The notes: a model not told the origin generated them from the sequence alone. Counted from the first letter of the stretch, positions 38,405 to 47,782 are shown. The stretch: DNA of 64,000 nucleotides from Promethearchaeota archaeon (GCA_016840165.1 JAEOSU010000070.1:64001-128000), one strand, 5' to 3'. Made by a program: numbers and translations.

Positions 38405-39520
38405 CTAAGTTTGCGATAATAGTTCAATAAGTGCGCGGGGTATTTCCTTGAAATTACTAACCGCATAAAATTTTCCACGACCAGCATCCGCTAGCTCCTT
38501 ACAGGTATCGATCCCTCTATCGGCATCATTTTCAGCAGGCATCCCAATTACATGTAATTTTGGATATTTTTTTGCTAAATCTATCGGATCATCTCCACGA
38601 TTATAATTTCCATCAGATATTAGGATCCCAAATTTATTTCGGGTTTTCTCTTTTACTTTGTTCAATTCAGTTAATCCCTTTTCTAACCCTATTGAAATAT
38701 CAGTAAAGCCAACTGCCTCTGAATCTAAAATTTCATCGATTATTGAGAATACTGGTTTTTTTTCGTCTATTTTTTTCAAAACCATAGCAATGGAATTAAA
38801 TAGCACAATGGCATAATCTTCTTTTTCCATATTATATGCTAAAACTGAAGTGGTGAGTGCAGCATTCAATAAAAGTCTGCCATACATACTTCCACTTGTG
38901 TCTAGAATTAAGGCAATTTTTCTTTTCTGCCGTTTTCTTTTGATACCATAAATATCATTATAACTTAGAGTCTTATTGTAGACTTTTAAAGGATTATGCT
39001 GGATGGTCTCATCTAAATCAAATTCAGGCATTCCGATTTGATAATAGGGAACAGTTTTTTTATAATCACCCCTAATTCCTTTACTTGTAATTTTTAACGA
39101 GGTTCGAAGGATACTTTGCCTTGCTAATCGGCGGAATATATATCTATATTTTTCGGATATTGGACGACGAATAAAGAAGTAAACCTCAGCCATCGATGCT
39201 GCAGAATTTTTAGCTTTTTCCGAGAAAAACTTAACTCCTTCATCACAGTCTAAAGCATCGGTAGCAGCATAGACATTTGATTTAAGTAAGCCCATTATAG
39301 CTTCAAGATTTTTGTATTGGATGGAAAGATAGGTCAATTCCTTTATTTGCTTATAATCTAAAGTATTAGCTAAATGATAATAATAACCAGGCTTTTTCTT
39401 CTTTTTCCTTATGATTTCATATCGCAATATCTCATTATCTGGAATTCGTTCCGTGAGTCTTACGTGTAGTCGTTTTTTCTCATCTTCTTCTGACTCCTCT
39501 GAAGAAAAATCATCGATTAT
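38405..39520 (-). CDS. vWA (MIDAS) domain protein, CoxE-like MoxR partner; possible ATA start overlapping the MoxR stop
   Basis: DTSGSM MIDAS, T, ISDG; FDLDETI; frame open from 39520; alternative start TTG 39427. Confidence 0.8.
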   Translation of the reverse strand: MIDDFSSEESEEDEKKRLHVRLTERIPDNEILRYEIIRKKKKKPGYYYHLANTLDYKQIKELTYLSIQYKNLEAIMGLLKSNVYAATDALDCDEGVKFFSEKAKNSAASMAEVYFFIRRPISEKYRYIFRRLARQSILRTSLKITSKGIRGDYKKTVPYYQIGMPEFDLDETIQHNPLKVYNKTLSYNDIYGIKRKRQKRKIALILDTSGSMYGRLLLNAALTTSVLAYNMEKEDYAIVLFNSIAMVLKKIDEKKPVFSIIDEILDSEAVGFTDISIGLEKGLTELNKVKEKTRNKFGILISDGNYNRGDDPIDLAKKYPKLHVIGMPAENDADRGIDTCKELADAGRGKFYAVSNFKEIPRALIELLSQT

Positions 39521-40389
39521 TGAAAATCCGCTTTATTTAATACCGCCAAGACTATGTCTGTAATGATCTCCGTTTTTGATTTAGCGATTCCATCTTCCAG
39601 CTCTATTTTATTATAAAGCGCCATGATGGCTCTATCTACCCATTTCTGAGCACTATGTTGTGTCTCTGAATCGATTATTAGATCTGCTAAATCAATAGCA
39701 CCTCGAATGGAACTTCCCCTTCGAAGCGAAGTGCTCTCTCTTGTATATTGAATTATTCTCTGGCATAATAACGCAATTTCTGGATCATCAGAATTTTTGA
39801 ATTTAGCCTCCTGTTTGATTATTTTTATTTCTTCTTCGGGATTTTGGTAATCAAGATGAACCCAGATAAATCGATCCTTCAGAGCTTCCCCAAGAACCGT
39901 GACCCCAACGTGTGCTGAAGGATTTTGGGTCGCAACGACAAAGAAGTCTTTATGAGCTTGAATTGTTTTAAGTTTAGGAATTTCTAATAAACCCTCATCT
40001 AATGAAGTAAGCAGTGAATTTTGAGTACTTTCGGGCATACGATTAATTTCATTTATGAATAAGCACCCTCCATTCATCATTGCTAATGGTAACGGACCAA
40101 AGATGTAAGATCCTTCAATATATCCCTTAGAAATTACTAATGGGGGATCCCAATACCCGACTAAATTATGAGATAGTGTCTCTTCATTACAATCAATGCG
40201 ATAGAAATCCGAATCAAAATATGCAGAAATCGCTCGAGCAATGGTAGTTTTTCCTACTCCAACTTCTCCCTCAATAAGAATGTTTTTCCCGACGGAGCGA
40301 GCAAGTATAACTTTCTCCAATTCAACTTCTCTACCGATGATTTTATATTTTTGTTGAATCTTCTCGATGATATTACGAGTTAGTACCAT
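39517..40389 (-). CDS. MoxR-family AAA+ ATPase
   Basis: IIGRE, GEVGVGKT, FINEINR, ATQNP, EALKDRF. Confidence 0.9.
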   Translation of the reverse strand: MVLTRNIIEKIQQKYKIIGREVELEKVILARSVGKNILIEGEVGVGKTTIARAISAYFDSDFYRIDCNEETLSHNLVGYWDPPLVISKGYIEGSYIFGPLPLAMMNGGCLFINEINRMPESTQNSLLTSLDEGLLEIPKLKTIQAHKDFFVVATQNPSAHVGVTVLGEALKDRFIWVHLDYQNPEEEIKIIKQEAKFKNSDDPEIALLCQRIIQYTRESTSLRRGSSIRGAIDLADLIIDSETQHSAQKWVDRAIMALYNKIELEDGIAKSKTEIITDIVLAVLNKADFQ

Positions 40390-40494
40390 AAATAAGATAG
40401 TTCGCTATTTCTAAAAAACTAACCTAGTTTTAAAATAATGAGAAGTAGCAATAGGCTATACATAAAAAAAATTATAAATATTCTTCTCGAAATT

Positions 40495-41373
40495 TTATGG
40501 GAATAGCTCGAGGAAAATGCTATATAATGATGGAAAATAGGGTATTGGTAAAAGCCGGATTGTATATAATAGCAAAAACATAAAAATTAATATTGAAATG
40601 ATAATAAAAAGAAAATCCTTCTTTTTAAATCGTACTCTAGTTAAATTTGTTCGGTGTTTACTTATCCCAAAACAACGATTTTCCATTGAAATCGATGTAA
40701 CCTGACTTTTCCGAAGAATTGTTACAAGTGTGGCAGCCAATCTATCAAAAACTAACCTATATGCTTTTTTGAAAGTATTAACTCCTTCTAATCCCAGTCC
40801 ACGAGCTTTTTGAGCTAATGCAACCGTTTTTGCCTCCTCTTCTATCAATGGGATATATCGAATACCAACCATAAAAGAGAAACAGTACTTATATGGTATT
40901 TTTATGCTTATTAAAGCATAGACAAAATCTTTCATTGATGTTGTGTTGGAATATACAATAGCCGAAGAAAATAAAGTCAAAACTATAAATAACGCTTTTA
41001 AAGCATAATAAACTGCTAAACGTCGTATAGGTAAGAATTCAAGATTAAAGAGATAAAATAAAACAGTCTCTTGATTACTTGGAATTGCATTGAAGAAAAT
41101 ATTAAGGAAAACACTAAAAATGAGAATAATTATCATAAATCTTAGCTTTCGGAATAAATTCCTCACAGAAATGCCACTAGCTAAAGCTAAAATTAGAATA
41201 CTTAAAAATATAAGTGCCAAAAATATTAAGCTATTTATCACAAAGGTCAAAATTGTTAATAAGGTTAAGAATATTATCTTTGATAATGGATTTAATTTAT
41301 GCATTAGAGAATTTCCAGGTGTGTAAGCAAAGTAATATTTTTTGTGATCTAATGCTTTATTTTTGCTTTTTAT
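40495..41373 (-). CDS. ecfT: ECF transporter T component (EcfT); N-terminus extended to ATA
   Basis: YTPGNSLMHKLNP N-terminal motif begins upstream of the called ATG 41304; RYIP, AQKARG, MENR motifs. Confidence 0.85.
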   Translation of the reverse strand: MKSKNKALDHKKYYFAYTPGNSLMHKLNPLSKIIFLTLLTILTFVINSLIFLALIFLSILILALASGISVRNLFRKLRFMIIILIFSVFLNIFFNAIPSNQETVLFYLFNLEFLPIRRLAVYYALKALFIVLTLFSSAIVYSNTTSMKDFVYALISIKIPYKYCFSFMVGIRYIPLIEEEAKTVALAQKARGLGLEGVNTFKKAYRLVFDRLAATLVTILRKSQVTSISMENRCFGISKHRTNLTRVRFKKKDFLFIIISILIFMFLLLYTIRLLPIPYFPSLYSIFLELFP

Positions 41374-41379
41374 TTTGAT

Positions 41380-43197
41380 TCACACCCCCATTAATCGTTG
41401 TTCAACTTGTTTTAAAAGAACAATAGGTCCCAAATTACTATATCGCCGAAAATAGTTATCTTTAATGTCATAATCTCTCAATGAACCGTCTTTATTCAAT
41501 TCCATAATACGTTTAGTATATTTTAACAGCATATGATAATCATGAGATGAGATAATAATTGTTTTTCCCCGTTTATTTTCGATAAATAGTGTTTCAATCA
41601 ATGCACCAATAGTTCTTTGGTCTTGACCGATGAATGGTTCATCTAAGAGAATAATCTCGGGATTATATACAAAGATAGAACTCAAATTTAACCTACGTTT
41701 CTGTCCCCAGCTTAATTTATAAGGATTCTTTTCCATATCTTCATTTCCAATAAGCTCAATGAGTTTATTTAGATAGTTATCCTCAATTTCATTGAGAATG
41801 CTGAAATTTTTTGGTCCATAGAGAATCTCATCTTTTATTGTTGGGTTAAATATCATCGTTTCAGGGTTTTGAAAAATAAATCCAATCTTCCGAGCATATT
41901 CATAAGAATTGAGCTTCTCGATATTTTGATTTTTATAAAAGATCTCACCAGAGGTAGGACTATAGAGATTAGCTAAAAGATAAAGTAAGGTTGTTTTACC
42001 CGATCCATTTGGACCAACTAAACCAATGAAATCACCTTTTTGAATCTGAATGGAAAGATTATTAATGGCGATGATCCCACTATTAGGATATTTGAAGGTT
42101 AGGTCGCGTGTTTCTAAGATGATATCATCGATATCATTTTGAGAATCAACTTCTTGAACCAGAGCATATTTTTTCTTATCTTGCTTATAAGATTCGATGT
42201 ATAGATTTTCAAATTCTATTCTTTCTTGATATGATTCATACTTTTCGAAAGATTTAGGATGTATCTCATTATCTATTATGACTTTTCTTAACTTTTCTAA
42301 TTGCTCTTGAGTTAACTGGGGTATCAAATTAAATAAGTTGTTAAAATTCATTTCTTTAGGGAAAGAACTGTTATGGTTGGTTGTCTGATTGAATTGATTG
42401 TAAATGTTCAAAATCCAAGGTACGCGGAGATTACAATCTTTTAATTCATTAAATTTGTAAGTAAATAATTCTTTTGTACCCCCATTAAGAGCAATTTCTC
42501 CTTTTTCATTGAGAACTAATATTTTATCGGCTATATCCATAACTCTTGATAATCGATGTTCGACGATAATAATTGTTATCGGATACTCACTGGAATCTTT
42601 CAACTTCTTCAAACGGGATAATAATAAACTTTCAGAATTACGATCGAGAAACGCAATAGGTTCATCTAATATAAGAATCTTCGGTTTTAATGCTAAAAAT
42701 GAAGATAAAATTACCAGTTGTTTTTGTCCTCCACTCAATTGATCTGTATCCCGATTGAGAAGATGATGAATTCCCATCAATTTGGAAATACCCTCAATTC
42801 TATTTTCAATTTCTTCTATAGAATATTCTAAATTTTCTAGACCGAAAGCAATTTCATCTTTTACTTTAAACGTTGTTAATTGATCTAGAGGATTTTGCTT
42901 CACTACTCCAATTAACCTCGACAAGTCAATGAAGTCATAGTCCCAAACACTTTTCCCGAAAAGTAAAACCTCTCCCTTCATTAATCCCTTAATACGGAAA
43001 GGGATAATTCCACTCATCGCATAAGTAAGAGTTGATTTACCACTTCCACTTGGACCGGCTAAAACTAATGTTTCCCCTTCTATTAGACTAAAAGAGATTT
43101 TTTTTACAACCGGTCTTTCTGTACTATTCCTACCGTATATAAATGAAAAATCATTAAAGCTAAGAGCGATATTAGAGTGCGAATTGATCCCAATCAC
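41380..43197 (-). CDS. Fused dual ABC ATPase of an ECF transporter (EcfA-A')
   Basis: GPSGSGKS/QNP/LSGGQ/LDEP and GPNGSGKT/FQNP/LSWGQ/LDEP. Confidence 0.92.
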   Translation of the reverse strand: MIGINSHSNIALSFNDFSFIYGRNSTERPVVKKISFSLIEGETLVLAGPSGSGKSTLTYAMSGIIPFRIKGLMKGEVLLFGKSVWDYDFIDLSRLIGVVKQNPLDQLTTFKVKDEIAFGLENLEYSIEEIENRIEGISKLMGIHHLLNRDTDQLSGGQKQLVILSSFLALKPKILILDEPIAFLDRNSESLLLSRLKKLKDSSEYPITIIIVEHRLSRVMDIADKILVLNEKGEIALNGGTKELFTYKFNELKDCNLRVPWILNIYNQFNQTTNHNSSFPKEMNFNNLFNLIPQLTQEQLEKLRKVIIDNEIHPKSFEKYESYQERIEFENLYIESYKQDKKKYALVQEVDSQNDIDDIILETRDLTFKYPNSGIIAINNLSIQIQKGDFIGLVGPNGSGKTTLLYLLANLYSPTSGEIFYKNQNIEKLNSYEYARKIGFIFQNPETMIFNPTIKDEILYGPKNFSILNEIEDNYLNKLIELIGNEDMEKNPYKLSWGQKRRLNLSSIFVYNPEIILLDEPFIGQDQRTIGALIETLFIENKRGKTIIISSHDYHMLLKYTKRIMELNKDGSLRDYDIKDNYFRRYSNLGPIVLLKQVEQRLMGV

Positions 43198-43204
43198 TTC
43201 CCTT

Positions 43205-43831
43205 TCAAAATGTTGTCGGAACCCCGGCTTTAATTAGATAATTCTTGATCGCTCTTCCCAAAATTCCTGTTATAAATACACCGGAGATAAATGCAAAAAT
43301 GAAAGCTAATGCCCAAAGACTCCAATGAAGATAAAATCTTTGATTGATAATCCAAAAGAAAGGTGCTTGAAAGAAATTTCCTAAACCACCCGCAAGACCC
43401 CAACCTAACTTGGTCTCCCCTTCACCTAGATTTTCCATTATAATAAAACCTATTACAAGGAAAAAAGCTTCCATTAGATTGACGAATAGTATCAATAGAC
43501 CCCAAGGATCTCCAAGTAAGAATTCAATTAATCCTTTTGAGAACATCGTTAAGAAAATATTATATTTTTTTTTGCTGATTCCATAGACAATAGTAGCCCA
43601 GATTACATGATGACCACTCACAAGTTGAGTCCCTCCAGTAAATGGATACCAAACTTTAATCAAAAGGCTAAATGGTATTAAACTTGAGATGATTCCACCT
43701 AATATGCCAATAATAAAGGCATAAGAAAGATCGAGATTAGTTATTTTTTTCTTTTCGATAAATCCTGTTTCTTTATAAGAATTTGAAATTTCTCCAGATC
43801 CTGAATCTGAAATCGGTTCTCGTTTAACCAT
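43205..43831 (-). CDS. ECF S component (YkoE-like substrate-binding membrane protein)
   Basis: About 6 TM; E.LLG.PWG, E..F, SG..ITG.LG..I...L.KAGV; directly upstream of the ECF ATPase. Confidence 0.75.
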   Translation of the reverse strand: MVKREPISDSGSGEISNSYKETGFIEKKKITNLDLSYAFIIGILGGIISSLIPFSLLIKVWYPFTGGTQLVSGHHVIWATIVYGISKKKYNIFLTMFSKGLIEFLLGDPWGLLILFVNLMEAFFLVIGFIIMENLGEGETKLGWGLAGGLGNFFQAPFFWIINQRFYLHWSLWALAFIFAFISGVFITGILGRAIKNYLIKAGVPTTF

Positions 43832-43859
43832 CTTTTTATCTTCCAGATTTGATCACCTC

Positions 43860-44417
43860 CTAAAAATACATTTTAATGATTATTTCGCTGAGCATTTGGA
43901 CAGAATATTGAGAACTATATTGACCCTCAGGCATAGTTGTTTGATCAAGTACAGATCTTAATGGACCATCTCCGAATAACGGAGCTCCATTTTCCTCATA
44001 AGCTATAATTACCAGATTTGGATTATTTTGTGCTATAGATAAATTTAATGGGAATGGAGAATGGTACTGATCCCGAGCCCAAAATTGGAATGTAAGTAAA
44101 GACGGATCAACATCGATTAAGGCTTCTTCAATTATGATGCTCCATAATGATACCCCTGAATAAATAACGTCATCCTCAGTATCAAAACTATTTAAAATAT
44201 GAAAAGTTTTATCTATATATTGATCATATTTATTAGATTTGAGCTGAGTTGTTGTCAGGGTGATTTGTCTGTTTACACCGTCACCTTGGATGGTGATAGT
44301 ATTTGGATCTTGAAATAAGTCGACATCTAATTCAATTATTGCAAATATAAATAACCAGACAATTACCATCCCAACAGCAATTGATGCAATTGCTATATAA
44401 AAATTTCTAGCTTCCAT
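43860..44417 (-). CDS. Membrane-anchored molybdopterin-oxidoreductase-fold (Oxidored_molyb-like) protein without any Cys
   Basis: N-terminal TM; YSGVSL, ARDQY, IIAYEENGAPL..DGPLR, VQMLSEI. Confidence 0.65.
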   Translation of the reverse strand: MEARNFYIAIASIAVGMVIVWLFIFAIIELDVDLFQDPNTITIQGDGVNRQITLTTTQLKSNKYDQYIDKTFHILNSFDTEDDVIYSGVSLWSIIIEEALIDVDPSLLTFQFWARDQYHSPFPLNLSIAQNNPNLVIIAYEENGAPLFGDGPLRSVLDQTTMPEGQYSSQYSVQMLSEIIIKMYF

Positions 44418-44420
44418 TTT

Positions 44421-45287
44421 TCATGTTCTACTATGATTTTTATTCTTAACTATAATTATATAGAAAACACACGTTAAGATTGAGATCGATAAAATAAAGA
44501 ATTCAAGATTAAAACCTGGAATAATTAGCTCAGGTTCCCTCAAATCTAATGCATAGGTCCATGATATAGCATGTTCTTCGTCATGATCATTATTTAAAAC
44601 GGCAATATTGAATTTATAGAGTTTCTTTTCATTAAATTGAACATCATAGATTTCATTGGTGTTTAATCTTCTTCTCATCTCTAGGATATAGGAACTACTA
44701 TCGTTAGTGAAAGCCACATCGATACTTTTTGCTTCAGGATTTCCTTGAATCCATCCATTCTCATTGAAACAGTCGTCACCACATAAATGTTCTTCCCCAG
44801 GAGATACTGTGTCTTGATAGATCCATCTCCAAGCATCCACACTACCGTTTCCCATACCAAATGTGTCCATATCTAAGGTATAATATGCTGTGAAATTTAC
44901 AGTATTTATATCCCAACAAAATGCAATTCCATCTTGTTCTGGAGGATTGTCATCTCTCGGAGAGCTATCCTCCCATTGGCATAAAATTAGAAGATAATCA
45001 TTATTTATCACAAACGAGATATTTAAACTATAAAGTTCTGGGATTACCCCTTCTGCTTCGATTTCAGCCAACATAATTTCCGTTGGATTTGTCCAAAAAT
45101 TTTCAGAAGGAAGCCCATCTAGAACAATTTCTGCTTCAGAATTAAAAGGCACATCGATAAAAGTTATTCCATGATATGCTGAACAATCGCCATCGCCAGG
45201 ATAGGCTGCCGTACTGACAATGTAAAAAAAAGGAGTGAATACAATTAAAATTATAGTCAATATCTTTATATTATTTAGGTTTTTCAC
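44421..45287 (-). CDS. Secreted DOMON/ethylbenzene-dehydrogenase-gamma-like (heme b) domain protein with Loki-CTERM tail
   Basis: I.LDG...E.FW, QWED, QDG.A..W, M..VD.W.W, LEMRRRL, HAIS; IPGF + TM + basic tail. Confidence 0.6.
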   Translation of the reverse strand: MKNLNNIKILTIILIVFTPFFYIVSTAAYPGDGDCSAYHGITFIDVPFNSEAEIVLDGLPSENFWTNPTEIMLAEIEAEGVIPELYSLNISFVINNDYLLILCQWEDSSPRDDNPPEQDGIAFCWDINTVNFTAYYTLDMDTFGMGNGSVDAWRWIYQDTVSPGEEHLCGDDCFNENGWIQGNPEAKSIDVAFTNDSSSYILEMRRRLNTNEIYDVQFNEKKLYKFNIAVLNNDHDEEHAISWTYALDLREPELIIPGFNLEFFILSISILTCVFYIIIVKNKNHSRT

Positions 45288-45404
45288 TTTAATCCTACTC
45301 CTTTAAAATATTGTTAAGATTTTAAGATTTGTTATGGTATATAAGCGTAAAAAATGGTAATTAAAATTTTTAAAAATTTTTTGTATAGTTTTGCTCGAAT
45401 TATT

Positions 45405-46844
45405 TTACGTTACAATAATATATTCTTCCTTGGTTATAATCGCTTCAGATCCATCATCATCGGTGACTGTGAGAGATATTGTATAATTTCCTGCCGAAGA
45501 GAATTGATAAATCGGATTTTGGAGTGTAGAATTCACTAGTATTGTGTTAAAAGTCCATAAATAACTAGCGGGTGGATTGTAAACGGTTCCAGTAAACGTA
45601 AATTCAACGGAATCACCTACGTTTATTTCAGTCTCATTAGCAGTAAAATCAACAACAGGTATAGTGTCAATTTCTATTTTATTTATCATTTTAATTTGAT
45701 AGCTACGCACACGTCCTGGAATTATCAATACATAGGGCCCATGACCAAAACCACAAGTCTTTTTATCAGGCCACGCAGGATTTGTAGCTGAAGAAGTTCC
45801 ATCAGATTCTCCTAAAATTTTAACCTCATAGGCTAAAATAATTGGCAAATCATCATATACATCTGGTAATGGCACACCATCATCCTCAGGGTCAGTTTTA
45901 TTTACATAGTCCCAGTAATACGAATCATATTCTAATCCATTATAGACTTCATCTTCAGTTAGACCACGTTTTTTAGATGAACCATGTGGTGCTGCCCAAC
46001 CATCTGCTGCTCTCGCTTTAACTTCGAAATTTATACTATCATCTAGACCAACCCAATCACAAAGCATTGAGAGATTTACTCCATTATAGTATCGATTCAT
46101 ACCCCAATCATCAGTTCTTTCATATTTATAAGTATATGAGTAATTGTAGGATAAATCGGTTATGTTAGATGGGTCCAATGAGAGTTTTAGCTCGTCATCT
46201 AAGTATACATCTAACATCCAATCACTCAACACATTAATTTCTTCCAAGTTATAAATCCGTGCATCCATAGCTTCACCTATAAGTGCAAACGTTCCATACT
46301 TACTACCTAAGGGCGAATCTTGAAGCCACTGCTGATTTGCTGCAATAGCAATCATTATATTCTCTTCAGCATCTTCCAACTTTTCCAAAAGTTGACTCGC
46401 ACTAGTTCTAAATACATTTCTTTGTCCAAAATCATCTTCAACTGATGCAAACTCAATATCTCCTGGAAAATAGGTATAGTATTTATCAAAAAGATCAGTT
46501 ATACTAAAACCAGTAATATGAATGTCGGTTTCAGGGTCAATGATTGTCATTAGCCCTATACCAGTATCATAAGCGCTTGCTTGAGCGTTTTGATATACTT
46601 CTATTCCTTTCAAAATATCTTCAAAGTAGATGTGGACATTACTGTGCGTTTGATTATTTAGTATTAAATAGGTAGAGTTTGGTGCGGTACTCCAATCATC
46701 AGGCAGTCCAGAGAGATAAGTGGGAGGAGTTGTAGTAGTTTTAGGTTCCCAAGTTGCTACCACAAATCCTAGCCCACCAGCTAAACCTGTTGCGATAATT
46801 ATTAATATACCAATTACTAAATCTTTAGTTTTCATGTTTATCAA
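45405..46844 (-). CDS. Membrane-anchored surface protein: two Oxidored_molyb-like repeats plus C-terminal PKD domain
   Basis: N-terminal TM, Thr/Pro linker; NGVNL..AADGW..IILAYE..GPYVLIIPG..IKMI..IEI; PKD V.F....YLWTF...QNP.Y....GNYTISLTVT. Confidence 0.65.
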   Translation of the reverse strand: MINMKTKDLVIGILIIIATGLAGGLGFVVATWEPKTTTTPPTYLSGLPDDWSTAPNSTYLILNNQTHSNVHIYFEDILKGIEVYQNAQASAYDTGIGLMTIIDPETDIHITGFSITDLFDKYYTYFPGDIEFASVEDDFGQRNVFRTSASQLLEKLEDAEENIMIAIAANQQWLQDSPLGSKYGTFALIGEAMDARIYNLEEINVLSDWMLDVYLDDELKLSLDPSNITDLSYNYSYTYKYERTDDWGMNRYYNGVNLSMLCDWVGLDDSINFEVKARAADGWAAPHGSSKKRGLTEDEVYNGLEYDSYYWDYVNKTDPEDDGVPLPDVYDDLPIILAYEVKILGESDGTSSATNPAWPDKKTCGFGHGPYVLIIPGRVRSYQIKMINKIEIDTIPVVDFTANETEINVGDSVEFTFTGTVYNPPASYLWTFNTILVNSTLQNPIYQFSSAGNYTISLTVTDDDGSEAIITKEEYIIVT

Positions 46845-47044
46845 TAATTTTTAAGTAAAATTAATGAGAGATAATCTGAGATGCCTTTTAAATGTTATGT
46901 ATGGAGGGAAATAACGCTATGATTTCTAGATTTTTATTCGAATTAAAAAATTGGATTAAGGCTTAGACCATAACTATGAAATTATAAAATGAATGGACTA
47001 AAATAATCCAAAAATTACAAAAGAAAAAGGTAATAATAAAATAG

Positions 47045-47782
47045 TTATGGTAAAGTTACGATGTTAGTTTCTTCATCTAGTTTAATTATCCCTTTCACTG
47101 CTAGTTGCTTGATCGTTCTCACTGCCATAATTGGAGGCACATCTAACAGCTTTTTAAGTTCTTCAAGGTCGCACGAACCTTGGCTCATAATAGTGGCTAA
47201 AATATCAACTTCCGGAATTTCCACTTCTGAATTTTCAATTAGAAATGAGGTGAAAAAATTATTTCTTTTTAATACATACAATTTCTGGTTTAACTCTTCC
47301 ATTTTTTCTTCCGTATATAAAGCTTTTAATTGGTTTTCTCGGTTTTCATTGGAAATCTTTTTCTGTTCCAAATCATTATTTTCATTCTCTAAATTTGTAA
47401 TCTTTTGATTAAGTGTGTTCAATTTCGAAAGGGTCTCTTCTAATTCCATCGATGGGGCAGTGAGATCATTGCTTAATCGTTCAATATTACTCTTAAGCTC
47501 TGTATTTTTACTTATCAATTCTTCATTAACGGTCTTCAAATTATTTACCTTTTTCATGAGATCTTCAACCGTGATTTTTAATTTGGTAATTTCTGAATTC
47601 TGATTGTTGATTGTTTCTTCGTGCTTTTTTACCTCATCATGCTCTAATATAATCATTTTCCACGTATTCTTAAGATTTTGTAGTACTGATTCACTATTTT
47701 TATGAAAAGCTTGGATATACTCATCAAAATTTTTTTCTAGCTGCTCAATATCAGTAAGAATGCTTTTAATTTCCGTACTCAT
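47045..47782 (-). CDS. Coiled-coil protein with C-terminal winged-helix domain
   Basis: About 170 aa of heptads, then LEELKKLLDVPPIMAVRTIKQLAVKGIIKLD; TAATG overlap with upstream gene. Confidence 0.7.
   Translation of the reverse strand: MSTEIKSILTDIEQLEKNFDEYIQAFHKNSESVLQNLKNTWKMIILEHDEVKKHEETINNQNSEITKLKITVEDLMKKVNNLKTVNEELISKNTELKSNIERLSNDLTAPSMELEETLSKLNTLNQKITNLENENNDLEQKKISNENRENQLKALYTEEKMEELNQKLYVLKRNNFFTSFLIENSEVEIPEVDILATIMSQGSCDLEELKKLLDVPPIMAVRTIKQLAVKGIIKLDEETNIVTLP

What the first reader, a model, noticed from the sequence alone, without database searches (positions are those of the whole stretch)
40495..46844. ECF uptake operon with Moco-fold surface proteins lacking the Mo-ligand Cys and a DOMON heme protein: candidate cofactor-scavenging system
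Six co-oriented genes: anchored tandem Oxidored_molyb-like + PKD protein; Loki-CTERM DOMON/EB_dh-like protein; anchored single Oxidored_molyb-like protein; S component; EcfA-A'; EcfT. Gaps among the last five are at most about 30 nt. Sulfite-oxidase-family enzymes need a Cys ligand just before the GVxL motif. The 185-aa protein has no Cys at all, and the larger protein has none at that position, which suggests binding rather than catalysis. Inference: surface capture and ECF import of a pterin/metal cofactor (Moco/Wco) or heme, plausible for a syntrophic auxotroph. I know of no characterised ECF system with these accessory proteins.
Basis: partly seen in the sequence, partly recalled or inferred. 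Interest (0 to 1): 0.72.

Follow-up and report, generated by a model that had tools for sequence, protein, structure and literature searches.

The report
Candidate molybdopterin-cofactor uptake system, Lokiarchaeia
A conserved Asgard-archaeal gene cluster (cysteine-less molybdopterin-fold surface proteins plus a dedicated ECF importer) alternates at one chromosomal locus with the whole molybdenum/tungsten-cofactor synthesis pathway in genomes that all keep cofactor-dependent enzymes, so it is most likely the first uptake system for this cofactor seen in a prokaryote.

Summary
The six genes are real and arranged as described. Structure prediction confirms three sulfite-oxidase-fold (SUOX) domains with no conserved Cys; their closest solved relatives include PruR, a Cys-less pterin binder. 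The transporter is a YkoEDC-type group I ECF system with a remote YkoE-like S component.

The window's genome (99.7% complete) lacks MoaA, MoaC, MoaE, MoaB, MoeA and any Mod/Wtp/Tup-type tungstate or molybdate binding protein. It still has 9 AOR and 4 MopB-family genes.

Among 121 genomes of the class:
- 45 have the ECF cluster only, 57 have MoaC/MoeA only, 8 have both and 11 have neither.
- Where both exist, they are adjacent in five genomes checked.
- In the genus, either set sits upstream of the same MoxR-VWA pair, and all seven "neither" genomes have an assembly gap there.
- On a ThiC tree, 8 of 8 independent pairs switch in opposite directions.
- ThiC is nearly universal, so a thiamine/HMP role is not indicated.
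- Three closed genomes carry the cluster and AORs but no MoaC or MoeA.

Best reading (about 0.6): surface capture and ECF import of a preformed W/Mo-pyranopterin cofactor. No ligand, transport or expression data exist. First readers of this scan noted the same cluster in at least six other genomes; those notes are unchecked.

The parts
45405..46844 (-). 479-aa N-terminally membrane-anchored surface protein: two Cys-less SUOX-fold domains (about residues 53-208 and 205-395) and a C-terminal PKD/Ig domain (397-479). The PKD domain is optional; most orthologues are about 390 aa.
44421..45287 (-). 288-aa DOMON/EB_dh/CBM9-like surface protein with a signal peptide and a C-terminal PGF motif, TM helix and basic tail (Loki-CTERM-like). 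Invariant Cys35, His39, Cys103, Cys124, Met140, Met145 and His239. Heme binding is inferred, not shown.
43860..44417 (-). 185-aa N-terminally anchored single SUOX-fold domain with no Cys; candidate cofactor-binding or hand-over protein.
43205..43831 (-). 208-aa ECF S component, a remote member of the YkoE family (PF09819). Very conserved (62-83% identity), with invariant GHH, GDPWG, GEGE and QAPFFW motifs.
41380..43197 (-). 605-aa fused double ATPase (EcfA-A', YkoD-like).
40495..41304 (-). EcfT/CbiQ transmembrane component, 269 aa from the ATG; the true start is probably upstream near 41379. It contains the coupling-helix Arg motifs (GIRY, KARG).
38405..40389 (-). MoxR AAA+ ATPase (40389-39517) and VWA protein (39427-38405). 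This is the conserved flank of the 'either ECF cluster or moa/moe cluster' locus. It is present in both genome types, and any functional link to cofactor insertion is speculative.

Best explanation
This is a dedicated uptake system for a preformed pyranopterin (molybdopterin-type) cofactor, most likely the metal-loaded tungsten or molybdenum form. Membrane-anchored Cys-less SUOX-fold proteins (three domains in two proteins), together with a DOMON-like protein, capture the cofactor at the cell surface. It may come free or from released proteins or a syntrophic partner. They pass it to a YkoE-like S component. The fused EcfA-A' ATPase and EcfT drive import by the usual ECF toppling mechanism, and the cofactor then matures the cell's AOR and MopB-type enzymes.

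Shown: gene content, folds, absence of the Cys, conservation, and the either/or relation with the cofactor pathway.

Inferred: the ligand, the direction of hand-over, and the roles of the DOMON-like protein and of MoxR-VWA.
For: 1. Fold. All three domains have the Moco-binding SUOX fold without a conserved Cys. PruR shows that such a fold can act as a non-catalytic pterin binder.

2. Own genome, 99.7% complete. There is no MoaC, MoaE, MoeA or MoaA. The only MoCF_biosynth protein is CinA-like. There is no PF13531 binding protein and no TupA-like homologue. It still has 9 intact AOR genes and 4 MopB-family genes.

3. Class level, 121 genomes at least 85% complete. 45 have the S component only, 57 have MoaC only, 8 have both and 11 have neither. 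MoeA and the TupA-like protein track MoaC, and none of the 45 S-only genomes has either.

4. Where both sets exist they are adjacent: L016, L025, G035/L037, G117/L038 and G115, with tupABC in between in L016/G115.

5. In the genus, all 34 genomes have 3-13 AORs. The ECF cluster or the moa/moe cluster lies upstream of the same MoxR-VWA pair. All seven 'neither' genomes have an assembly gap at that locus or a cut contig.

6. On a ThiC DNA tree the two types are interleaved: 10 changes, and 8 of 8 independent pairs go in opposite directions, sign test p = 0.008.

7. Three closed genomes have the cluster and 6-7 AORs but no MoaC or MoeA.

8. ThiC is present in 109 of 121 genomes, so the complementarity is specific to Moco genes and is not caused by incompleteness.

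9. The complex prediction of the S component with the 185-aa protein gave weak support only. The score was 0.47 and the best control 0.00. That mark was reached by 58 of 80 solved complexes and 2 of 110 mismatched pairs. At 0.60 or under, however, it was reached by only 7 of the 80 solved complexes and by both mismatches. The runs agree in at least 62% of contacts, and the partner's pLDDT is at least 83.
Against: - There is no experimental or expression evidence.
- The ligand is inferred from comparative genomics alone.
- No prokaryotic Moco importer is known, and free Moco is labile.
- The S component belongs to a thiamine-associated family.
- Eight genomes keep both systems, so the two are not strictly redundant.
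- MopB enzymes need bis-MGD, and a MobA was not clearly found.
- The species tree rests on a single gene (ThiC).
- Eleven of 121 genomes show neither system. This was explained by assembly gaps only for the seven in the genus; the other four were not examined.
- A MoaD-like gene follows EcfT in several loci. Whether those genomes lack moaA/moaC elsewhere was not checked. The gene hints that some processing of the imported species may be needed.
Confidence: 0.6

Rival explanations
1. The system imports another small pterin- or pyrimidine-like micronutrient, such as thiamine/HMP as for YkoE, or a folate/methanopterin-type pterin as for PruR ligands. The relation to Moco genes is then incidental.
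For: The S component is in PF09819, and YkoE is its only solved relative. The YkoE Glu77 equivalent is conserved (PMC5037267). PruR binds monapterin/neopterin, not Moco.
Against: ThiC is present in the own genome and in 46 of 53 S-positive genomes. There is no TPP riboswitch. Other thiamine-contact positions differ in the weak alignment. This reading explains neither the adjacency to tupABC-moaCAD-moeA nor the 8 of 8 opposite switches. It also leaves 7-13 AORs per genome without a cofactor source.
Confidence: 0.1
2. The system acquires the metal (tungstate or molybdate, perhaps from a complexed form) rather than the pterin.
For: It replaces a TupA-like transporter as well as the moa genes. Metal-specific ECF systems (CbiMNQO, NikMNQO) exist, on established knowledge. 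Invariant His-His and acidic motifs occur in the S component.
Against: 45 genomes with the cluster lack MoaC and MoeA. The own genome also lacks MoaA, MoaE and MoaB, so metal alone could not yield a cofactor. The capture proteins have a pterin-binding fold.
Confidence: 0.08
3. It is a surface redox module (SUOX-like plus a DOMON cytochrome) whose cofactor is exported or serviced by the ECF module, as proposed for flavin trafficking by an ECF-like system in Listeria (from memory).
For: The pairing of a SUOX-fold protein with a heme-type DOMON recalls sulfite oxidase and MsrPQ. The DOMON-SUOX pair is kept even in distant homologues (L010).
Against: There is no Mo-ligand Cys. 45 of 53 carriers cannot make the cofactor they would export. 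Genomes with their own synthesis mostly lack the cluster.
Confidence: 0.05
4. The either/or pattern reflects replacement of a variable genomic island with no functional equivalence. The AOR and MopB genes in ECF-only genomes would then be served by an unknown route or be inactive.
For: The locus is clearly a hotspot (10 changes on the ThiC tree). 'Orphan molybdoprotein' genomes have been reported without explanation (PMC6147048).
Against: Two unrelated gene sets would have to alternate exactly while one of them encodes a Moco-fold binder. The AOR ORFs are intact and numerous. Every genus genome with the locus assembled has one set or the other.
Confidence: 0.12

Closest known systems
YkoEDC group I ECF transporter of Bacillus subtilis (YkoE structure 5EDL; PMC5037267)
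   Same: Same architecture: a dedicated operon with an S component of PF09819, a fused double ATPase (YkoD-like) and a CbiQ-type T component.
   Different: The relation is only remote (profile E 0.025 to 5edl). Of the thiamine contacts, only the Glu77 equivalent is kept in a weak alignment. There is no THI-box and no complementarity with ThiC. The system has three extracellular accessory proteins, and in one family of the class AA' and T appear fused.
PruR periplasmic pterin-binding proteins (7KOM, 7KOS, 7KP2, 7RKB; PMC11194511)
   Same: A small extracytoplasmic SUOX-fold domain that lacks the Mo-ligating Cys and acts by binding, not catalysis. VIA Z 10.9-12.0 and Foldseek TM 0.64-0.69 on the PruR chains.
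   Different: PruR is a proteobacterial signalling protein that controls a GGDEF-EAL enzyme and binds monapterin in a truncated pocket. Here the domains are membrane-anchored and multiplied (up to nine stretches matching the profile in giant relatives). They are archaeal and operon-linked to an importer. Sequence similarity is marginal (E 0.11).
Sulfite-oxidase-family molybdoenzymes (SorA, chicken SO, YedY/MsrP; PF00174)
   Same: The Moco-domain fold, with motifs such as GV.L, AY..NG and GP.R.
   Different: No Mo-ligand Cys, no Tat signal, sub-threshold Pfam scores, and no dimerisation or heme domains of the enzymes.
Dietary Moco acquisition by nematodes lacking Moco synthesis (C. elegans work recalled from memory; Haemonchus contortus, PMC7619442, title and abstract only, seen)
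   Same: An organism with Moco-dependent enzymes but no synthesis pathway takes the finished cofactor from other organisms.
   Different: That case is eukaryotic and I know of no defined transporter for it. Here a specific prokaryotic transporter candidate is identified.

Membership tests
ECF transporter, group I (dedicated module) | EcfT/CbiQ-family T component with coupling-helix Arg motifs | tested here: met
   PF02361 E 3.2e-21; TIGR02454 E 1.5e-22; GIRY and KARG motifs in the sequence
ECF transporter, group I (dedicated module) | Two ABC ATPase domains of the EcfA type | tested here: met
   Two ABC_tran stretches in one 605-aa protein. TIGR04521 scores 327.8 bits (cut-off 330) and TIGR04520 scores 312.9 (cut-off 315)
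ECF transporter, group I (dedicated module) | Small integral-membrane S component encoded in the same operon | tested here: met
   PF09819 in 19 of 19 orthologues; S-AA'-T order conserved in all complete loci
ECF transporter, group I (dedicated module) | ATP-dependent import of a bound micronutrient | not testable with these tools
   Needs transport assays
YkoE thiamine/HMP S components (PF09819) | Pfam model above the gathering score | tested here: met
   27.4 bits against 25.2; best member E 3.5e-10
YkoE thiamine/HMP S components (PF09819) | Thiamine-coordinating residues Tyr46, Trp49, Glu77, Gln95, Asp131 (PMC5037267) | tested here: inconclusive
   The profile alignment to 5edl is weak (E 0.025). 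In it Glu77 aligns with invariant Glu103, Gln95 with Glu121 and Trp49 with His75; Asp131 is not conserved
YkoE thiamine/HMP S components (PF09819) | Thiamine context (THI-box, or presence in genomes lacking HMP synthesis) | tested here: not met
   No Rfam riboswitch. ThiC is present in the own genome and in 109 of 121 class genomes irrespective of the S component
SUOX-family molybdoenzymes (PF00174) | Moco-binding domain fold | tested here: met
   Foldseek E 2e-6 to SorA, sulfite oxidase and YedY; VIA Z up to 12.9
SUOX-family molybdoenzymes (PF00174) | Conserved Mo-ligating cysteine | tested here: not met
   No Cys in the 185-aa protein; no invariant Cys in A1 (26 sequences) or A4 (15 sequences)
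SUOX-family molybdoenzymes (PF00174) | Pfam gathering score | tested here: not met
   16.5 bits against 24 for the 185-aa protein; no hit for any of 15 larger proteins
PruR-type pterin-binding proteins | Small extracytoplasmic Cys-less SUOX-fold domain | tested here: met
   N-terminal TM anchors
PruR-type pterin-binding proteins | Pterin-sandwich residues (Asn102, Tyr104, Trp160) and the Pro-Trp motif | tested here: inconclusive
   Invariant Asp116-x-Tyr118 and Gln170-Tyr171 may correspond by motif position. The only HMMER alignment covers the C-terminal part, and no coordinates were available
PruR-type pterin-binding proteins | Operon with a DcpA-type GGDEF-EAL partner | tested here: not met
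   The neighbours are ECF components
DOMON / EB_dh heme-binding domain | Family model match and axial heme ligands | tested here: inconclusive
   EB_dh 30.0 bits against 33.3; CBM9_1 E 0.016. The nearest Atlas cluster (score 0.97, possibly this protein's own cluster) carries EB_dh on 16% of members. Invariant Met140, Met145 and His239 are candidates only
Loki-CTERM sorting signal | NCBIfam NF033507 above cut-off | tested here: inconclusive
   17.4 bits against 19.9; a PGF motif, TM helix and basic tail are present

The most novel reading that the evidence does not exclude
Many Lokiarchaeia, including three closed genomes that may be cultured strains, are complete auxotrophs for the tungsten/molybdenum pyranopterin cofactor. 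They import it ready-made through this system. That would make it the first dedicated Moco/Wco transporter known in any prokaryote and a new axis of dependence of Asgard archaea on their partners. Repeated swapping between 'make' and 'take' alleles at one locus would be a population-level strategy.
Probability: 0.55. Interest if true: 0.92.

Novelty: new variant of a known kind. Interest (0 to 1): 0.86.

Why it matters
Moco/Wco has been treated as a cofactor that every user must synthesise. The 'orphan molybdoprotein' genomes (Peng et al. 2018, PMC6147048) remain unexplained, and my literature searches found no prokaryotic Moco transporter.

A defined importer would explain how dozens of Lokiarchaeia species run 3-13 AORs with no synthesis pathway and no tungstate or molybdate transporter. 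It would add a cofactor to the list of goods exchanged in Asgard syntrophies. It would also give ECF transporters their first extracellular capture proteins.

The idea is directly testable, because the cluster occurs in closed genomes and the soluble domains are small.

Tried and rejected
- Single-sequence PDB search with the S component found nothing relevant; a profile was needed.
- hhalign of the 185-aa family against the 479-aa family was weak (probability 16%). Pfam gave no Oxidored_molyb hit for any larger protein. The tandem claim was settled only by structure.
- Contigs of distant homologues were too short for context.
- Rfam: no riboswitch in 40000-47600, only a chance Histone3 hit at E 0.33.
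- Sequencing runs: the DNA occurs in marine sediment metagenomes, and no RNA holder is listed.
- MobA (TIGR02665): only sub-threshold hits, undecided.
- Five 'neither' genomes gave no S-component hit even at E 0.01. This was later explained by the missing or cut locus.
- The export/loading hypothesis was rejected because most carriers cannot synthesise the cofactor.
- cPMP or metal-free MPT as the imported species was considered unlikely, because MoaE, MoeA, MoaB and oxyanion transporters are absent.


Full report
**Anatomy**

Six minus-strand ORFs occupy 46844-40495, with gaps of 117, 3, 28, 7 and 75 nt.

- The last three are a group I ECF module. The S component is in PF09819 (27.4 bits against a 25.2 cut-off). 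The 605-aa protein has two ABC domains and scores just under the NCBIfam ECF-ATPase cut-offs. The T component is CbiQ/EcfT (E 3e-21). This is the YkoE-YkoD-YkoC architecture (PMC5037267).
- The 185-aa protein has an N-terminal TM helix, no cysteine and only a sub-threshold Oxidored_molyb hit.
- The 288-aa protein has a signal peptide, weak EB_dh and CBM9 hits, and a C-terminal PGF motif, TM helix and basic tail.
- The 479-aa protein has an N-terminal TM helix and a C-terminal PKD domain.

Downstream on the same strand lie a MoxR ATPase and a VWA protein. No Rfam element is present.

**Folds**

The 185-aa family (26 sequences, alignment A1) gives a confident model (pLDDT 90.4). Its best solved matches are sulfite dehydrogenase SorA, chicken sulfite oxidase, YedY and the PruR 'putative pterin-binding proteins', including the neopterin complex 7RKB (Foldseek E 2e-6 to 1e-4; TM on the PruR chains 0.64-0.69).

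The 479-aa model (pLDDT 69) contains two such domains, about 53-208 and 205-395, each matching both sulfite oxidase and PruR at VIA Z 11-13. An Ig-like domain follows.

No Cys is conserved in either family. PruR is a published precedent: a Cys-less SUOX-fold protein that binds a pterin between a Tyr and a Trp and has no enzymatic role (PMC11194511).

The DOMON-like family has invariant Met140, Met145 and His239 and three invariant Cys. Heme binding remains an inference.

**The S component**

Nineteen orthologues are 62-83% identical, with many invariant polar and aromatic residues. All match PF09819. The only solved relative is YkoE, at E 0.025. In that weak alignment, the thiamine-contact Glu77 matches invariant Glu103, Gln95 matches Glu121, Trp49 matches His75, and Asp131 is not kept. 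This is a remote YkoE relative with a remodelled pocket.

**Distribution and synteny**

The 185-aa family is small: 168 representatives at E <= 1e-3 among 1.84 billion proteins. Some are tandem, and some are giant proteins in which up to nine stretches match the profile. Named homologues are all Asgard.

In 20 species loci the order is tandem protein, DOMON, single-domain protein, S, AA', T. MoxR-VWA usually follows.

In L016 the cluster is followed by a Tup-like ABC transporter, then moaC, moaA and moaD. In L025, G035 and G117 it is followed by moaC-moaA-moaD.

The S family is confined to four families of one class: 63 of 332 Asgard genomes, and none in the other large families.

Three closed genomes carry a diverged version in which the AA' and T matches fall in one open frame of about 860-890 residues, apparently a fusion.

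**The decisive test: the cofactor pathway**

The window's genome (99.7% complete) has the following.

- No MoaC, MoaE, MoeA_N or MoaA C-terminal domain.
- No hit to Asgard MoaC or the Tup-like binding protein and permease by tblastn, and only radical-SAM-level hits to MoaA.
- Only a CinA-like MoCF_biosynth protein.
- No PF13531 binding protein.
- Nine intact AOR genes and four MopB-family genes.

Across 121 class genomes at least 85% complete:

- The S component is in 53 and MoaC in 65. That gives 45 S-only, 57 MoaC-only, 8 with both and 11 with neither. Fisher odds ratio 0.034, uncorrected for relatedness.
- MoeA follows MoaC, and all 45 S-only genomes lack it.
- The Tup-like binding protein is found in 52 genomes, all carrying MoaC, and in none of the 45.
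- ThiC, as a control, is in 109 of 121, including all 34 genomes of the genus.

**One locus, two alleles**

In the genus, every genome has 3-13 AORs. The 185-aa family occurs exactly where the S component does, plus one copy truncated at a contig edge in G088.

The highly conserved VWA gene is present in both genome types. In MoaC-type genomes it lies a few kb beyond tup-moaC-moeA-moeA, and in ECF-type genomes a few kb beyond EcfT (with coordinates).

The seven genus genomes first scored as 'neither' are accounted for as follows.

- Four lack the VWA gene too, so the locus is not assembled. One of these is G088, with the truncated copy.
- Two have the VWA gene within 1.3-1.7 kb of a contig start.
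- One has MoeA on a small contig.

On a ThiC DNA tree of 40 genomes the two types are interleaved, with at least 10 changes. In 8 of 8 independent pairs on well-supported branches, gain of one goes with loss of the other (sign test p = 0.008). G097, G098, G099 and G110 were left out because they lack a full-length first-paralogue ThiC. G088 was scored ECF and G103 was scored Moa on partial evidence. The tree is a single-gene proxy.

The closed genomes G008, G011 and G014 have 6-7 AORs and the cluster, but no MoaC or MoeA.

**Interpretation**

The genomes fall into two types. One type has a set of Moco-fold binding proteins with an importer. The other has the entire synthesis pathway with its oxyanion transporter. 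The two sets occupy the same locus and replace each other repeatedly among close relatives that all keep the dependent enzymes. This is the classic comparative-genomic signature of a salvage transporter.

MoaE, MoaB, MoeA and the metal transporter are all missing. The imported species is therefore most likely the finished, metal-bearing cofactor rather than cPMP, metal-free MPT or the metal alone.

An export or loading role is excluded for most carriers, because they cannot make the cofactor.

A direct contact between the 185-aa protein and the S component received only weak computational support. The score was 0.47 and the best control 0.00. The mark was reached by 58 of 80 solved complexes and 2 of 110 mismatches. 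At 0.60 or under, only 7 of the 80 solved complexes and both mismatches reached it.

The roles of the DOMON-like protein and of MoxR-VWA are open. MoxR-VWA is recalled from memory to resemble the CoxD/CoxE-type maturation factors.

**Literature**

My searches found no description of a prokaryotic Moco transporter, nor of this cluster. Peng et al. 2018 list 'orphan molybdoprotein' organisms without an explanation. Sun et al. 2013 list coenzyme-uptake categories, and none is for Moco. Imachi et al. 2020 note a molybdopterin-dependent FdhA and restricted biosynthetic capacity in MK-D1.

First readers of this scan flagged the same cluster in at least six other genomes; those notes are unchecked.

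**Verdict**

My confidence in cofactor import is about 0.6, limited by the total absence of biochemical or expression data.

Noticed in passing
window 38405-40389; G105:C28 410-421 kb; L038: A very conserved MoxR-VWA pair (VWA 78-92% identical across species) flanks the locus in both ECF-type and moa-type genomes. It always lies next to Mo/W-cofactor genes, which hints at a role in cofactor insertion like CoxD/CoxE (from memory).
   Followed up: partly
L032 5906-8584, L033 5319-7928, L034 6039-8621: In three closed genomes of a sister family, the ATPase and T-component matches fall in one open frame of about 860-890 residues. This looks like a fusion of AA' and T.
   Followed up: no
P0077, P0078, P0191 and others; G113:C99 7110-8450: Relatives of the 185-aa domain occur as tandem, triple and giant proteins (2250-4874 aa, 7-9 matched stretches each). 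These may be multivalent capture proteins.
   Followed up: no
L028 4508-7841 and 9983-13983; L002; G021:C182; G115; G228: Some genomes carry a second S component, in some cases (L028) with a second set of surface proteins beside the complete cluster.
   Followed up: no
L013 4171-4449, L014 6975-7250, L015 13383-13658, L017 3911-4186: A MoaD/ThiS-like gene stays just after EcfT in several loci that show no moaC or moaA nearby. This may be a remnant, or a needed sulfur-carrier step.
   Followed up: no
window 41302-41382: The EcfT frame probably starts upstream of its only ATG, at a non-canonical codon. In relatives the T ORF abuts or overlaps the ATPase stop.
   Followed up: partly
G113:C99:3659-4270, G116:C8:14433-15044, G014:C1:2099621-2100223: The S-component matches in these genomes include in-frame stop codons (TGA or TAA). 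These could be pseudogenes, sequencing errors or match overhang.
   Followed up: no
class genomes: Many genomes carry two distinct ThiC paralogues, with scores of about 1e-185 and about 1e-145.
   Followed up: no
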